A DNA stretch of 64,000 nucleotides from Eledone cirrhosa (Eukaryota): NCBI GenBank assembly GCA_964016885.1, contig OZ024740.1:244900001-244964000 (forward strand). Direction: 5' to 3'. The translations under genes and the position numbers were made by a program. Of the stretch, positions 2,548 to 52,306 are shown piece by piece; the first letter of the stretch is position 1, and each line of letters begins with the position of its first letter. The notes beneath the pieces are model-generated. The model saw only the letters and a list, made by a program, of their open reading frames with translations, made no database searches and had not been told where the DNA came from.

Positions 2548-2668
2548 TTAATATAGAGAACCTTCTACAGGACTAGAACTGTTTCATTCGTGAGAAATCA
2601 TCAGGAGCTTCCTGATGATTTCTCACGAATGAAACAGTTCCAGTCCTGTAGAAGCTTTTCTATATTAA
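2548..2668. repeat. About 120-bp palindrome made of two divergently oriented HHR motifs
   Basis: ttctacaggactagaactgtttcattcgtgagaaatcatcagga-gct-tcctgatgatttctcacgaatgaaacagttccagtcctgtagaa. Confidence 0.9.
2606..2656 (+). ncRNA. Type I hammerhead ribozyme
   Basis: AGCTTC CTGATGA T-TTC-tcac-GAA-T GAAA CAG-ttccagtc-CTG TA GAAGCT; predicted cut after A2650; mirror copy on the minus strand at about 2561-2606. Confidence 0.88.
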
Positions 2669-18201: not shown

Positions 18202-18721
18202 GGGGGGGGGGGGGGTTAAGCAATAAATATCCTATGTAATACCTCCACTTTGTTCTTATTATATACACTCTGCTCTGCATTGAGTGCTGACATTGGTACT
18301 CTCACCAGTTTTCTTCGGACTTACTAAATCTTTTGCACGTATAATGATCCCCGCTGGGTAGAGCACCTACAGCTGAGTGAGTACCATGGGGAGGTCTACC
18401 TGTCGTCTTATTCTGAGGACATACCAATACAGGATAGCAACACTTACCTGTGTTGGGTGGTACAGTACACGGACTCATTTACCCAATGGTTGCGGTGGTA
18501 TGCTTACCTTTTTTGACCACACCATCACCACAGACTACATCACACCTGACGTTGACCCTTCGGACCTAAAGGGTTACTTCAATTCCTGTATGAAGCCCCT
18601 CACCATGTACTTCTGGAGAAATTTGAGGGTAGACTCTTGCATTTTTTGGCGTGTTTTTTTATGATATATGTATGTGTGTATTTATATGTATGTGTGTATA
18701 TGTGTGTATGTATATGTATGT

Positions 18722-23340: not shown

Positions 23341-23810
23341 TCAAATTCCAAATTTTTCTCAATCTTAAGGAAAATCTTCCCATCCACACACAGATACCAC
23401 CAGATACTAAATGCCTTTACAGTTAAACTATCGTACTCTACTACACCTAACCTACAAATAAGAATAAACGCGTCTAACATATCGAAGCTTAAGAATATCT
23501 TAGAGCAGGTACATTCTTCAACTACTAGCACGAATATTTCAATAAATTACTTTAACTCACCAAACCCGGGAAGCATCAAAACTAATGCTAATACTGACAC
23601 CAACACGAATAGAGTATTTACAGAGCAACACAACGTAGCATATAGCCCTCCTAACGTAGCACGCAGTGCCCCCGATAGAGACACTAATACCGTCAACAAT
23701 AATAACAGCGCTGTAACATTTGTACAGCCAATACTAATGCTGGGAAACGCACTAGATCTGGACAAGCGATCACAAGTACATAGGCATATGTTTGGAGAGA
23801 ATTTAGTCTA
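23341..23810 (+). pseudogene. PLE RT thumb fragment followed by an Asn/Thr-rich in-frame extension (no ATG start, absent from the ORF track)
   Basis: KFFSILRKIFPSTHRYHQILNAFTVKLSYSTTPNLQIRINASNISKL aligns by eye with KIFLSLITKHFPPTHKYSNIFNRNTIKISYSTAPNLAHNITASNLAKL of the 737-aa ORF. Confidence 0.8.
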
Positions 23811-40685: not shown

Positions 40686-41137
40686 GGGCAAAGGAGCTCT
40701 TAAGAGTCAATGGCCATCCAAAATCACCGGGAGAGATGACCCCTTAGCCTTTGTCAAGGCAGAATTCTGGGAGAAGGAAAACTCTGATATAACACCTGCA
40801 ACCCTGATGGTATCCAATGATGTTGACTTGTTCTTCTTTTTGGTAAATATCATCTTGGTTAAGAGAGTGGGACTGTCTTTGTGCAGTGCCTTTGCTCACT
40901 ATAAAAGCTTCACGGCACAGGCATTGCTTTTTATCTGGAGATCTCTCTGCACTTGTCGTCAAGTAGTACCATGGGCCCAGCACTATGTGTCAATAATTGT
41001 CACAAGTGTAGTGTTTGTACCAGAGTTATCAAGTCGCTGGCTGGACTAAAAAGTCACACTTGTTCAGCGCATCGGTTGGAGTTCTCCTACATGGATATAA
41101 AGTAGTGGCCGTACTCGAAAACGAGTTGGCAGCCACC
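40686..41137 (+). mobile_element. Non-coding RTE-derived bipartite SINE-like element
   Basis: RTE 5'UTR-like ttagcctttgtcaaggcag...ggagaaggaaaactctga and RTE-like 3' end ctcgaaaacgagttggcagcc; copies at 43446-43896 (minus) and 51790-52306 (plus). Confidence 0.7.
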
Positions 41138-41179
41138 ACCATATATGTAAATATGTATATATGTATATATATATATATC

Positions 41180-41750: not shown

Positions 41751-41772
41751 ATATTTATATATATGTATATAT

Positions 41773-41884
41773 ATTTATTAAAATAACAGATCAAAGTTTA
41801 AGCAAAGATTCGGTGCTTTCACGCTTAACGGGATCTTCTGAAACTAACAAAGTAAACCTGTAAACGCAGAAGTGGATATTTCAA
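41773..41884 (-). mobile_element. Solo fragment of the PLE pseudo-LTR, including the CAGAAGA hammerhead motif (41795-41845)
   Basis: Slightly diverged match to 46473-46584 and 49731-49842; same boundary at tttattaaaata; embedded in (TA)n. Confidence 0.9.
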
Positions 41885-43445: not shown

Positions 43446-43896
43446 TGGTGGCTGCCAACTCGTTTTCGAGTATGGCCACTACTTTATATCCATGTAGGAG
43501 AACCCCTACCGGTGCGCTGAACGAGTGTGACTTTTTAGTCCAGCCAGCGACTTGAAAACTCAGGTACAGACACTACACTTGTGACAATTAGTGACACATA
43601 GTGCTGGGCCCATGGTACCATGTGACGACAAGTGCAGAGAGATCTCCAGATATAAAGCAATGCCTGTGCCGTGAAGCTTTTATAGTGAGCAAAGGCACTG
43701 CATAAAGCCAGTCCCACTCTCCTAACCAAGATGATATTTACCAAAAAGAAGAACAAGTCAACATCATTGGATACCATCAGGGTTGCAGGTGTTATATCAG
43801 AGTTTTCCTTCTCCCAGAATTCTGCCTTGACAAAGGCTAAGGGGTCATCTCTCCCGGTGATTTTGGATGGCCATTGACTCTTAAGAGCTCCTTTGC
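43446..43896 (-). mobile_element. RTE-derived bipartite SINE-like element between (TACA)n tracts
   Basis: Reverse-complement match to 40686-41137. Confidence 0.75.
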
Positions 43897-46440: not shown

Positions 46441-46493
46441 TACATACATACATATATATACATACATATATATTTATTAAAATAATAGATTAA

Positions 46494-46544
46494 AGTTTAA
46501 GCAAAGAATCGCTGCTTTCACCCTTAACGGGATCTTCTGAAACT
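46494..46544 (-). ncRNA. Hammerhead motif with U4A core variant in the 3' pseudo-LTR
   Basis: Minus strand: AGTTT CAGAAGA T-CCC-gttaa-GGG-T GAAA GCA-gcgattctt-TGC TT AAACT. Confidence 0.75.
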
Positions 46545-47384
46545 AACAAAGTCAATCTGTAAACGCAGTACTGGATATTTCAAAAAACGTTGCAACCGGA
46601 GGAAGACAGGAAGACGATACTTTGGTTCATGGTGACGTTCGCTGGCAAAGAACGGGAAAAAACGAATAATACGTCATTAATAGGAGCGGTGAAAAACAAT
46701 TACGCGCAAAGACAGAACCACGTTTATGGTATAAAAGAGGTCGTAGACTAATGTTCTCTAAGTGGTGCATAGAGACGTTCTCTGGCAATGAACGAAAAAA
46801 CGAAGATAATAAGTCATATGTGGAGCGTGGAGAACAATAGCACGCAAAGACAAAACCACGTAAATGGTATAGCAGAAGTTGTAGACTAAAATTCTAACTA
46901 GGAGACCGAATGAATCTCCGCTACAGAGTTAAGAACAAAGTAAATAAATACAATACTGAAGTAATAGAAACAAATAAATACATACGCGCAAACAGATACG
47001 TACATACAGAAGCATACGCAAAACCTTACCATAGGTATACAAAACCACGCACATATAAATATGTGTGTGTGTATGCTTGTGTACAAACAAATAAATAATT
47101 ATATAAACGTATATAAGTAAATAAATACGTATATAACAAGCGAACACATATACCTACAAATAAATACACGAAGGTTCGGAGACGTAAGTCAACTAAAACA
47201 AGAAGTGCACATATACACACACCCACCATACGTACGAACCTGCATACTCACGCAGACGCAAAACTCCCATATACACATAACCAAACCCTAAATACCAGAA
47301 TATGCAAAAATTATACGCCGTAACAGTCAAATATACGTACGAGAAGGTATACATACCTTCACAAAACATACGGGTAATATATAC

Positions 47385-49598
47385 TTACCTATGCAAATAA
47401 GTAAAGGAATAAACAAAACATATACTTAGCTCCCACATCAAGACGTAAAATATCCACGTATAGATCGTGCTATCCGTTAGGGTATAACGTGGGCTGTAAT
47501 ACAGGAAAGTTTTGTGCAATTTATGTTTACAAGCCGAAATTGCCTCAGATTTTTTGTTTAAGATGTGGTCTGTGGCGTAGAGTATTTCCAGGGCCTCGGC
47601 GGCGCAGAGGTCACATGGTCTTTTATTTCCGTTATACGATCTAGCCCTAGCTAGGATCTCCCAGTGTAACTTATATTGGGTGTGGTTGTCTTTTAGACTC
47701 CAGATATAAGCTGAAAGTGACGTCATATTCCTTCTTAGAGGGTAACGAAAAGAATGGGTATGCATGTAAAGACGCTGCTTGAAACTATTGGCGGTTAACC
47801 CTATGTAGGCCCTACGGGACGTGGGTGTTACAACCTTACATTTGTAGACAATGTTACTAGAGAGGCATTTTCCGGATAGGGGACAATCAGCCCGATTCCT
47901 ACAATTACAGTTAGTACTAACTACAGGGTTGCACGTGTTCCTACGGCTAGGTAGTTTAGCTAAATTTGAAGCTGTGATGTTATGTGCAAGGTTAGGAGCC
48001 GTAGAGTAAGAAATTTTAATAGTGTTTCTATTAAAAATGTTACTATATTTATGTGTAGGGGGAAAATGCTTCGTAATAAGGGAAAGAAAGATCTTAGCTA
48101 ATGGTGTGGCCACCTCCATGTTATATGGTGGGTTAAACCAACAAATGCGACGGGATCTATTTCTTCTAGGTCTATTCTCGTACTCTGTATATGCTACCCT
48201 ATCGACAAATCCACTTCGAGCAAGAACTTCATTGTAATAAGTGGAATGGTCGTTGAAAATGCGCTCGTTGGTGGAAAGACAGGAAAGACTCAACGAAACG
48301 TTTTTTACCAGGTTCTTGGTTATGCTGGCAGAATGGTTGGAATGCTTACTTATGTAATTAAGCGTATCATTCGGCTTTCTATACTGGTAATACAACCCAT
48401 TCAATAAATTGAGGGTAACGTCGAGGTAATTAACGACCGAGAGATTGGCCTCAACCTGTATAGAGAGGTTGAAGCCTTTAAAGAAGGCTGTGAGTTCTTT
48501 TCTGAATCTGTCGCAAGCACGAGGTCCGCACTTAGTCATGGTCAAAAGACCATCGTCACGGTACAAACCACCGCCCGCGTTGGGGAATTTGTCCTTGATA
48601 GAGAAAAGAAGGAAAAGGCCAATAAGATCAGTAACCTCCGCAGAATCACTGGCGCCCATACTCACGTCGAATGGGGTACTATTGGATTTTTTAATCCAAA
48701 TAGAGTCGTCGAAATTAATCACCGACTTTCGGGCATTAAGGATGACATCAACTTCGAAATCCTTAACCACTGTGAGTGTTTTAGCGAAATTGATAGCTCT
48801 AAGGAGAAGTGGTAAAGTGATGGAGGAGTAGTAATTGTTGATGTCGAATTGGATAAAACGGCAATGTTCCTTGTTACATATGCCGTTGAACCAATCAATC
48901 ACCGCGAAAGAATTGTTCCACAGTGCGAGAGGGGCCAAACTTCTAATTTCAGGTATAATTCTATCAAGAATCGTTTTACTAAGTCTACCTAAATCGGACT
49001 TCGTAGGGTTAATAAGCCGAATAGAGGGGTTGTTCGGAAAATTGGATTTGTGATCCTTCAGGGTAAAGTGGGGAGAGATAGGGTCCAGAGGTTCGGTCCG
49101 GTCCAGGATGTTGAGATCAGATGTGATTTTAAACCCAGCATCGTTGATTTCATTGATGACACACCGATCAGTTTTACGGTAATCCTTAGTTACAGCATTA
49201 TGTAGTAGTTGATGGTAAGTACTGCGCTCCACTTGATATAGGTTGCCTGTTTTGTCGGAATGGACGTGCACGGCGTTAGAATCCTTAATAGAACGAATTC
49301 TATTCTTCAGGTCTTGCTGGAAGGAATTACTCCTATTCCGAAATTTGATACTCCGAATGAGTTCCAAGACATCATTTTCGAAGGGTAGCAATGCTGGGTT
49401 CCACGGAGGGTTATTATAGGTTTTAAATCCAAATTTGTCCTGTTTGTTGTTTGCTTTTCGCGGATTATCGAAATAAAAGGCACGCCAACGCAACCTTTTA
49501 ATGAACGCGTCTGTTTTCTGTATCAGGAGTTTTAGGTATGTTTTCCTGCTTGGTACGGGTATGTTCTTTGTAGAAATATTCAGATGTTGTTTCTGCAT
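47385..49598 (-). CDS. PLE reverse transcriptase with C-terminal GIY-YIG endonuclease, 737 aa (motifs suggest the Hydra clade)
   Basis: SDKTGNLY; IRLINP; FDINNYYSSI; MGASDSAEVTDL; LYRDDGL; VNYLDVTL; WFNPPY; CNCRNRADCPLSGKC; IVYKC..AYIGLT..FKQR. Confidence 0.95.
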   Translation of the reverse strand: MQKQHLNISTKNIPVPSRKTYLKLLIQKTDAFIKRLRWRAFYFDNPRKANNKQDKFGFKTYNNPPWNPALLPFENDVLELIRSIKFRNRSNSFQQDLKNRIRSIKDSNAVHVHSDKTGNLYQVERSTYHQLLHNAVTKDYRKTDRCVINEINDAGFKITSDLNILDRTEPLDPISPHFTLKDHKSNFPNNPSIRLINPTKSDLGRLSKTILDRIIPEIRSLAPLALWNNSFAVIDWFNGICNKEHCRFIQFDINNYYSSITLPLLLRAINFAKTLTVVKDFEVDVILNARKSVINFDDSIWIKKSNSTPFDVSMGASDSAEVTDLIGLFLLFSIKDKFPNAGGGLYRDDGLLTMTKCGPRACDRFRKELTAFFKGFNLSIQVEANLSVVNYLDVTLNLLNGLYYQYRKPNDTLNYISKHSNHSASITKNLVKNVSLSLSCLSTNERIFNDHSTYYNEVLARSGFVDRVAYTEYENRPRRNRSRRICWFNPPYNMEVATPLAKIFLSLITKHFPPTHKYSNIFNRNTIKISYSTAPNLAHNITASNLAKLPSRRNTCNPVVSTNCNCRNRADCPLSGKCLSSNIVYKCKVVTPTSRRAYIGLTANSFKQRLYMHTHSFRYPLRRNMTSLSAYIWSLKDNHTQYKLHWEILARARSYNGNKRPCDLCAAEALEILYATDHILNKKSEAISACKHKLHKTFLYYSPRYTLTDSTIYTWIFYVLMWELSICFVYSFTYLHR

Positions 49599-49751
49599 GA
49601 TGAATATAAGTCAATAGAGTGCTCAACCGAAGGAGCCAAATAGTAATAATAATAAAATTGAAGACTAAAATCCAAAGAGGGCTCGATAAGGAAAATATAT
49701 ATCAAATATATAAGAACCGAAGAGCAAATGTTTATTAAAATAACAGATTAA

Positions 49752-49802
49752 AGTTTAAGCAAAGAATCGCTGCTTTCACCCTTAACGGGATCTTCTGAAA
49801 CT
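49752..49802 (-). ncRNA. Hammerhead motif with U4A core variant in the 5' pseudo-LTR
   Basis: Identical to 46494-46544. Confidence 0.75.
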
Positions 49803-49846
49803 AACAAAGTCAATCTGTAAACGCAGTACTGGATATTTCAAAAAAC

Positions 49847-49922
<76 letters not shown>

Positions 49923-51789: not shown

Positions 51790-52306
51790 AGGTTTCTTGG
51801 TGAGGAGGGTGACTTTGGACATCCTGCAGGACTAAAAACAAAACCTGTCAAAGGGCAAAGGAGCTCTTAAGAGTCAATGGCCATCCAAAATCACCGGGAG
51901 AGATGACCCCTTAGCCTTTGTCAAGGCAGAATTCTAGGAGAAGGAAAACTCTGATATAACACCTGCAACCCTGATGGTATCCAATGATGTTGACTTGTTC
52001 TTCTTTTTGGTAAATATCATCTTGGTTAAGAGAGTGGGACTGGCTTTGTGCAGTGCCTTTGCTCACTATAAAAGCTTCACGGCACAGGCATTGCTTTATA
52101 TCTGGAGATCTCTCTGCACCTGTCGTCACATGGTACCAAGGGCCCAGCACTATGTGTCAATAATTGTCACAGGTGTAGTGTTTGTACCAGAGTTTTCAAA
52201 GTCGCTGGCTGGACTAAAAAGTCACACTTGTTCAGCGCATCGGTAGGGGTTCTCCTACATGGATATAAAGTAGTGGCCGTACTCGAAAACGAGTTGGCAG
52301 CCACCA
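51790..52306 (+). mobile_element. Longest copy of the RTE-derived bipartite element, flanked by (TGTA)n
   Basis: Matches 40686-41137 with about 60 bp extra upstream. Confidence 0.75.

What the first reader, a model, noticed from the sequence alone, without database searches (positions are those of the whole stretch)
46494..46544. Fixed U4A catalytic-core variant (CAGAAGA) in the hammerhead of the intact PLE
Seen: all three copies (41795-41845, 46494-46544, 49752-49802) read CAGAAGA instead of CUGANGA, with stems I and III intact (stem II has one mismatch in the 41795 copy), a U-U at the base of stem II and a CUU cleavage triplet. The variant is shared with a diverged solo copy, so it is a family trait rather than decay. 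Known: U4 is part of the conserved core. Inference: an attenuated ribozyme, or a fold retained for a non-cleaving role such as RT recognition. Both 3' boundaries lie about 25 nt downstream of the predicted cut.
Basis: partly seen in the sequence, partly recalled or inferred. Interest (0 to 1): 0.7.

Follow-up and report, generated by a model that had tools for sequence, protein, structure and literature searches.

The report
Jumping gene with crippled hammerhead core
A very abundant Penelope-type jumping gene carries the usual small self-cutting RNA motif with one normally fixed core letter changed (U4 to A) in over 99% of its counted copies; the change likely weakens cutting, and the ends of the copies suggest the element is copied from uncut, likely capped RNA, so the cut is probably dispensable.

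Summary
Observation confirmed. All three minus-strand motifs read CAGAAGA, in the terminal repeats of a likely Hydra-clade Penelope-like element with an open 737-aa ORF. Genome-wide, 11,757 of 11,842 exact-context copies have A4, as do 95 of the first 100 listed copies of an older subfamily. The U·U pair is ordinary for Hydra hammerheads.

Copy 5' ends pile up at the first base of stem I (2,919 copies, 58 of the first 100 with G). That G is often untemplated, so it is likely a cap mark. There is no pile-up at the predicted cut: 66 of 70 sampled copies run through it. A canonical-U4 family in the same genome behaves alike.

Best reading: a slowed or dead hammerhead forming the front 51 nt of the element's RNA, with cleavage dispensable. 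Cleavage itself is untested, and conservation cannot be assigned to the fold rather than a promoter. I found no natural U4A in the papers searched; Lünse 2017 was not held. This scan earlier noted U4A/U4C cores and the cap-G pile-up in other genomes (unchecked notes).

The parts
46494..46544 (-). Hammerhead-type motif, downstream pLTR; A4 at 46538; predicted cut between 46499 and 46498
49752..49802 (-). Identical motif in the upstream pLTR; A4 at 49796; 49802 is the inferred transcription start (+1)
   Evidence: start inferred from family-wide 5' ends
41795..41845 (-). Motif in the solo fragment; A4 at 41839; one stem II mismatch, two loop III changes
41771..41884 (-). Solo 3'-end fragment of the same family between TA repeats, 92% identical to the element's ends
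47385..49598 (-). Open 737-aa ORF: RT (YRDD) and C-terminal GIY-YIG-type endonuclease; RWR, DKT, CxCX5C, CxxC and CxH motifs of the Hydra clade
49728..49848 (-). Upstream pLTR, 121 nt, 98.3% identical to the downstream one; starts 46 nt before +1, next to a TA run
46470..46590 (-). Downstream pLTR counterpart, ending in TA-type repeats
46473..46493 (-). Tail +52 to +72 between stem I and the fixed 3' boundary (likely RT start site)
   Evidence: role inferred from PMC11167929 passages
46591..47384 (-). Long 3' UTR; its last 400 nt carry many subfamily variants

Best explanation
The motif is a type I hammerhead-derived sequence in the terminal repeats of a likely Hydra-clade Penelope-like retrotransposon whose lineage has carried A instead of U at core position 4 since before its subfamilies split; the change likely slows or stops self-cleavage, and the element likely does not need the cut because it is copied from uncut, probably capped RNA that appears to begin at the first base of stem I. 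Shown: fixation of A4, its age within the family, the pile-up of copy ends at +1 with an often untemplated G, and read-through of the predicted cut. Inferred: transcription starts at +1, so the motif is the first 51 nt of the RNA. A cut would remove the cap at the 5' end and would separate the template from the RT start site 26 nt downstream at the 3' end, so loss of cutting costs little. The sequence is likely held by a non-cleaving job (internal promoter and/or template recognition). Predicted: A4 loses the core contact made by U4 and also pairs with the U before GAAA, favouring an inactive hairpin.
For: Fixation: 11,757 of 11,842 exact-context copies have A4. A4 in 9/9, 13/13, 64/64 and 140/141 alignments at <85, 85-90, 90-95 and >=95% identity, after dropping non-A copies fetched for being non-A, and in 95 of the first 100 of 136 older-subfamily copies. 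The U4 copies viewed (26 loci) sit on several subfamily backgrounds, as expected of separate point changes. 5' ends: 2,919 copies have a non-T base just before stem I, 58 G, 23 C, 19 A in the first 100 (hand count). In 12 of 19 G copies among 30 loci the G is explained by neither joined arm (my reading). 16 of 30 older-subfamily loci have G there, where read-through copies have C. An untemplated 5' G is read as a cap mark for L1 (PMC9341517, passages). Cut site: 66 of 70 upstream-type copies run through it, 0 break exactly at it, 12 break in the 14 nt around the motif's 5' edge (about 2 expected). Only 591 copies have a non-T at position 17, about 17 of 30 viewed being point changes. Literature: all CUGA-turn mutants but the C3G/G8C swap had low activity (PMC9901934); hammerhead mutants did not affect PAc insertion in vitro and no RNA-seq ends were seen at its cut (PMC11167929). 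Folding: A4 pairs with U25 at p 0.70 in the 51-mer; hammerhead stems are 2.7-fold (37 C) to 10-fold (15 C) less probable than in a natural U4 copy.
Against: No cleavage or RNA data. The canonical-U4 family shows the same picture: no evident cut-site pile-up (170 non-T copies, 16 of 30 viewed being point changes) and G-marked 5' ends in 5 of 90 copies. So the genomic record does not show that A4 changes cleavage. Cut RNA may simply never be copied. The other 11 core positions are all kept, which catalysis would explain. A natural U4C viroid variant keeps enough activity in vivo (PMC3088659, passages). The folding model is weak: a canonical-U4 motif of another family also scores only 0.02 for its hammerhead stems, and the A4-U25 pair fades in longer context. 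Most upstream-type copies (49 of 70) extend beyond +1, so a start at +1 needs template switching or read-through RNA as well. No U4-bearing ancestor of this family was found, so the direction of change rests on other families.
Confidence: 0.55

Rival explanations
1. It is a working, slow ribozyme. A4 is a tolerated core variant, helped in vivo by the element's protein, chaperones or outer contacts, and low-level cutting limits expression or makes ends for circles.
For: All other core positions and the three stems are unchanged across subfamilies: 0 of 51 positions carry a shared variant versus 16 of 101 just upstream (p 0.0014). Old versus young majority letters differ at 0 of 27 pattern-free motif positions versus 16 of 146 in tail and 5' UTR (p 0.08). 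U4C is tolerated in a viroid. PLE hammerheads are slow in vitro and thought to need factors (PMC4209133).
Against: Pairwise mutagenesis found no rescue in the CUGA turn except the C3/G8 swap (a type III construct). No compensating change is visible here. No excess of copy ends at the cut. The 5' UTR is as constrained as the motif (3 of 85 versus 0 of 51, p 0.29).
Confidence: 0.25
2. It is a relic. The fold does nothing, and the letters persist only because they overlap a DNA promoter and because few master copies have carried the lineage.
For: Constraint starts at +1 and continues to about +157. The start context resembles an initiator (TTAGTT in young, TCAGTT in old read-through copies; consensus recalled). 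D. virilis Penelope has an internal promoter just downstream of its start (PMC2377424, passages). No compensatory base-pair change was seen within the family, and the fold is no more stable than shuffles.
Against: The old-young differences inside the motif fall in loop II and, in some copies, loop III, as expected if pairing matters; part of this is forced by my search pattern. The tail next to the motif did change (4 of 21).
Confidence: 0.12
3. A4 was selected for a new job: either an off-switch helix (UUUCA with UGAAA) that protects the cap, or a new CAG splice acceptor inside the core.
For: A4-U25 pairing is predicted at 0.70-0.92 in the 51-mer. The sequence ends a pyrimidine-rich run with CAG, and in D. 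virilis an intron ends at helix I (PMC4209133). At least 14,676 exact A4 copies exist.
Against: 0 of 138 distinct copies show a spliced-type junction after the CAG. The helix is context dependent. In three insertions U4 stands in both or all arms (L371-L373), so U4 templates were likely copied too. One lineage cannot show that A4 caused the expansion.
Confidence: 0.08

Closest known systems
Hammerheads of Hydra-clade PLEs (Craig et al. 2021, PMC8557442; passages, section 11, supplement parts 1, 2 and 52 read)
   Same: Protein motifs (RWR for RWK, DKT, CxCX5C, CxxC, CxH), TA-repeat targets, type I motif near the 3' end, short stem II with U·U at its base (13 of 26 rows).
   Different: All 26 listed Hydra rows read CUGA (they were found with a CUGA descriptor). 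Here A4, G15.2-C16.2 with a CUU triplet, a 9-nt non-palindromic loop III, and a 3.26-kb unit against 'generally <3 kb'. The listed Hydra-1_oBim motif has different stems.
Minimal hammerheads of metazoan PLEs (Cervera and De la Pena 2014, PMC4209133; parts 1-2 of 4 read)
   Same: Type I motif in both pLTRs, thousands of dispersed copies, low expected activity, a non-cleaving role left open by the authors.
   Different: The core variant in the parts read is the U3-A8 covariation, not a position 4 change. Their stem III is absent or short and palindromic (dimer type); here it could form in a monomer.
Natural core variants (Perreault et al. 2011, PMC3088659; passages read), including the U4C viroid variant
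   Same: A change at position 4 can exist in nature, with lower activity.
   Different: U4C, not U4A (0 occurrences of 'U4A' in the main text). Rare single cases, not a state fixed in more than 10,000 copies.
Anolis PAc Poseidon element (PMC11167929; passages read)
   Same: RT starts at fixed internal sites that define the tail; uncut RNA is the main substrate; no RNA ends seen at the hammerhead cut.
   Different: PAc has a canonical core that cleaves in vitro and overlaps the start codon. Here the core is altered and the ATG lies about 200 nt past +1.

Membership tests
Type I hammerhead ribozyme | Core C3, G5, A6, G8, A9, G12, A13, A14, A15.1, U16.1, H17 | tested here: met
   Read directly in all three copies; consensus as listed in PMC3088659.
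Type I hammerhead ribozyme | U at position 4 | tested here: not met
   A in 11,757 of 11,842 exact-context copies.
Type I hammerhead ribozyme | Three helices around the core, stem I open | tested here: met
   5, 3 and 4 base pairs by descriptor; 0 chance hits in 3,000 resampled elements. Not the predicted minimum-energy fold.
Type I hammerhead ribozyme | Compensatory base-pair changes supporting the fold | tested here: inconclusive
   Stems do not vary between subfamilies; only loops do.
Type I hammerhead ribozyme | Match to an Rfam hammerhead model | tested here: inconclusive
   No match, but U4 controls give none either.
Type I hammerhead ribozyme | Site-specific self-cleavage after N17 | not testable with these tools
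   Needs an assay. Genomic copy ends show no pile-up at the site in this or the U4 control family.
Type I hammerhead ribozyme | Tertiary contact between loops 1 and 2 | not tested
   Not examined.
Dimer-type minimal PLE hammerhead | Stem III absent or short with a palindromic loop | tested here: not met
   4-bp stem III with a 9-nt non-palindromic loop; the U4 control family has the palindromic type.
Hydra-clade PLE | Single ORF, RT then C-terminal GIY-YIG-type endonuclease, no CCHH motif | tested here: met
   By inspection of the translation and alignment. Pfam gave no significant hit.
Hydra-clade PLE | RWK, DKT, CxCX5C linker, CxxC and CxH motifs | tested here: met
   RWR, DKT, CNCRNRADC, CDLC and CKH present.
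Hydra-clade PLE | Insertion into (TA)n, partial tandem pLTRs, inverted 5'-truncated partner | tested here: met
Hydra-clade PLE | Phylogenetic placement within the clade | not tested
   No tree with the published Hydra proteins was built; the 516 homologues (best 56% identical) carry no clade names.

The most novel reading that the evidence does not exclude
U4A is a selected off-switch. It turns a ribozyme that sits directly behind the cap into a stable leader hairpin, which protects the capped RNA and the RT start site and let this lineage out-copy its canonical neighbours. PLE hammerheads would then be brakes on transposition rather than processing tools, and position 4 the easy way to release the brake.
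Probability: 0.15. Interest if true: 0.75.

Novelty: new variant of a known kind. Interest (0 to 1): 0.5.

Why it matters
What hammerheads do in Penelope-like elements is open: processing and circle formation were proposed, while in-vitro work on one element found the cut unnecessary. This family is a natural core mutant that still made at least 14,676 exact copies and has lasted through subfamily divergence, beside canonical families in the same genome. One cleavage assay (A4 versus its natural U4 copies) and one cap and cut-end mapping would test the question directly. It also shows that CUGA-based searches miss a whole large family, and that fold-back junctions fake U4 copies.

Tried and rejected
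(1) A U4 sister family with the same stem II: all such loci viewed (L061, L065, L066, L067, L077, L085, L087) were head-to-head junctions centred on position 4, reading A on one strand and T on the other; rejected.
(2) A propagating U4 revertant clade: the 26 loci viewed (of 32 T matches) lie on mixed backgrounds; no tree was built.
(3) Copy-specific stop loss explaining the ORF's C-terminal extension: 0 of 22 copies has a stop there; rejected.
(4) Splicing at the CAG: no junction in 138 copies.
(5) Rfam and Pfam were uninformative.
(6) Metagenome scan: 30 pattern matches, none confirmed.
(7) No RNA holder was listed. Four contig sets were laid; no difference at 46538 among the rows shown, 17 rows hidden. 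Two of the runs have only thin cover, so no conclusion on other organisms.
(8) The cross-family alignment was too poor in stems III and I to count pairs, and the rows came from a pairing descriptor, so it was not used.
(9) Papers not held: Lünse 2017, Ambros and Flores 1998 (41), the id I tried for Nelson and Uhlenbeck 2008 (53), Scott 2013 (76), Martick and Scott 2006 (98). Lünse 2017 and the unseen supplements of PMC4209133 and PMC3088659 could already show an A4 variant.

Full report
Observation. The three stretches are real and lie on the minus strand. Each has a 5-bp stem I, the core CAGAAGA, a 3-bp stem II closed by U·U, GAAA, a 4-bp stem III and a CUU triplet. The solo copy has one stem II mismatch. 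The two downstream-type copies end in TA repeats 26-29 nt past the predicted cut. A descriptor with position 4 free finds the motif twice in the element and 0 times in 3,000 resampled elements. It is not the predicted lowest-energy fold, and Rfam misses it and also misses U4 controls.

The element. An open 737-aa ORF (47385-49598, minus) lies between two 121-nt repeats that are 98.3% identical. [quoted passage not shown] 2021 give for the Hydra clade (PMC8557442 section 11; alignment). The best of 516 homologues is 56% identical. I built no tree, so the clade is likely, not shown. In that paper's File S2 all 26 Hydra rows read CUGA and 13 have the U·U pair, so U·U is ordinary; those rows were found with a CUGA descriptor.

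Fixation. In the 3.0-Gb genome an exact 25-mer with A4 occurs 11,757 times and with any other base 85 times (T 32, G 29, C 24 by hand), that is 99.3% A. A4 holds in all identity bins, including 9 of 9 alignments under 85% (non-A copies fetched for being non-A were dropped). An older subfamily with a longer loop II has A in 95 of the first 100 of 136 matches, T in 4 and G in 1. The U4 copies viewed sit on mixed backgrounds. About a dozen other hammerhead families turned up in 341 records; none has A4 as its common state (1 of 47 in the largest), one long-armed family shows C4 in two copies, and a few other C4 copies occur. I found no U4-bearing ancestor of this family.

A trap. A search for canonical cores (8,480 matches) returned CUGAAGA with this family's stem II. 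Every such locus viewed was a head-to-head junction centred on position 4, which sits in the middle of TTC-N-GAA. There are 513 exact palindromes of this kind. Among 1,498 head-to-head junctions near the core, 13 of the first 50 are centred there (hand count).

Where copies end. I anchored on sequence 3' of the motif and took 70 of the first 100 listed upstream-type copies (of 11,237). Of these, 66 run through the predicted cut, none breaks exactly at it, and 12 break in the 14 nt at the motif's 5' edge, against about 2 expected. Genome-wide, 2,919 copies have a non-T base just before stem I, with G in 58 of the first 100. In 12 of 19 such G copies among 30 loci neither joined arm supplies the G. 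In the older subfamily 16 of 30 loci have G there, while read-through copies have C. An untemplated 5' G is taken as a cap mark for L1 (PMC9341517, passages), so I infer a capped start at the first base of stem I, in an initiator-like context (consensus recalled). At the cut only 591 copies have a non-T at position 17, and about 17 of 30 viewed are point changes; the exact denominator is unknown.

Control. A canonical-U4 family with a palindromic stem III and a related ORF (about 30-40% identical) behaves alike: 5 of 90 copies begin with G four bases before stem I, and 170 copies have a non-T at position 17, 16 of 30 viewed being point changes. So productive templates are uncut in both families, and the genome cannot show what A4 does to cleavage. 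This counts against any claim that A4 was needed.

Constraint. Variants shared by at least 5% of copies occur at 29-30 of 100 positions in the 3' UTR, 16 of 101 just before +1, 0 of 51 in the motif, 0 of 21 in the tail and 3 of 85 in the 5' UTR. The drop starts at +1 but is not limited to the hammerhead (p 0.29 against the 5' UTR). Between old and young subfamilies 0 of 27 pattern-free motif positions differ, against 16 of 146 in tail and 5' UTR (p 0.08). An internal promoter, as in D. virilis Penelope (PMC2377424, passages), would explain this as well as the fold would.

Mechanism. Pairwise mutagenesis of a type III hammerhead found low activity for all CUGA-turn changes except the C3/G8 swap (PMC9901934, passages). 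Perreault 2011 notes a U4 contact with the A6-N7 phosphate, and a U4C viroid variant that is slow but viable. Folding predicts that A4 also pairs with the U before GAAA (p 0.70 in the 51-mer), lowering the hammerhead fold 2.7- to 10-fold against a natural U4 copy; this fades in longer context and a canonical motif also scores low. In the Anolis element hammerhead mutants still insert in vitro (PMC11167929, passages). I therefore commit to a slowed or dead hammerhead that forms the RNA's leader, with cleavage dispensable (0.55). A slow working ribozyme (0.25), a promoter-held relic (0.12) and a selected new function (0.08) remain.

Novelty. Searches for 'hammerhead' with 'U4A' and for CAGA/CUGA natural variants returned no paper; searches listed none that names it, and one search listed none whose title or abstract start points to cap marks in PLEs. 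Lünse 2017, the most likely prior source, was not held, and supplements of the 2011 and 2014 papers were not read. The bioRxiv retrozyme preprint was read in part 1 of 5; PMC6765202, PMC7229834, PMC6155905, PMC11014351 and PMC12910113 as passages only. Verdict: real, a new variant of a known kind, interest 0.5.

Noticed in passing
G000, e.g. L065:1480-1530 and L077; 513 exact sites: Head-to-head fold-back junctions centred exactly on core position 4 rebuild a canonical CUGAAGA on one strand; either arm can carry the T, which suggests annealing of two cDNA ends at TTC-N-GAA.
   Followed up: partly
window 2607-2655 (+): Canonical-U4 hammerhead of another family with the same layout (3-bp stem II, U·U, long loop III), preceded by an inverted copy of itself; a ready control for assays.
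   Followed up: partly
window 59773 (+), approximate: Another canonical CUGAUGA hammerhead with a long stem II, of a third family.
   Followed up: no
L184, L161-L190, L281-L340: Second abundant Hydra-like family with canonical U4 and palindromic stem III; some copies begin with an extra G four bases before stem I.
   Followed up: partly
window 49731-49802 and 46473-46544: The +1 to +72 stretch stands at both ends of the inferred RNA, like a retroviral R region; template switching across it could explain pLTRs that extend beyond +1 (49 of 70 copies) without an RNA circle. Inference only.
   Followed up: no
L371, L372, L373: Three insertions carry U4 in both or all arms, so a U4 template was likely reverse transcribed through its own cut site.
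   Followed up: partly
L072:1021-1069, L198:1317-1365, L080, L090: C4 (CCGA) cores in copies of other hammerhead families, so position 4 varies more than once in this genome.
   Followed up: no
window 18397-18513 and 23353-23490 (+): Short fragments of other Hydra-like ORFs, 38% and 54% identical.
   Followed up: no
window 40688-41138, 43446-43896, 51855-52199: A 345-451-nt repeat in three copies, 96-97% alike, in opposite orientations around the solo fragment and the element.
   Followed up: no
window 46691-46855: The 3' UTR appears to hold an internal repeat of about 125-150 nt (joints).
   Followed up: no
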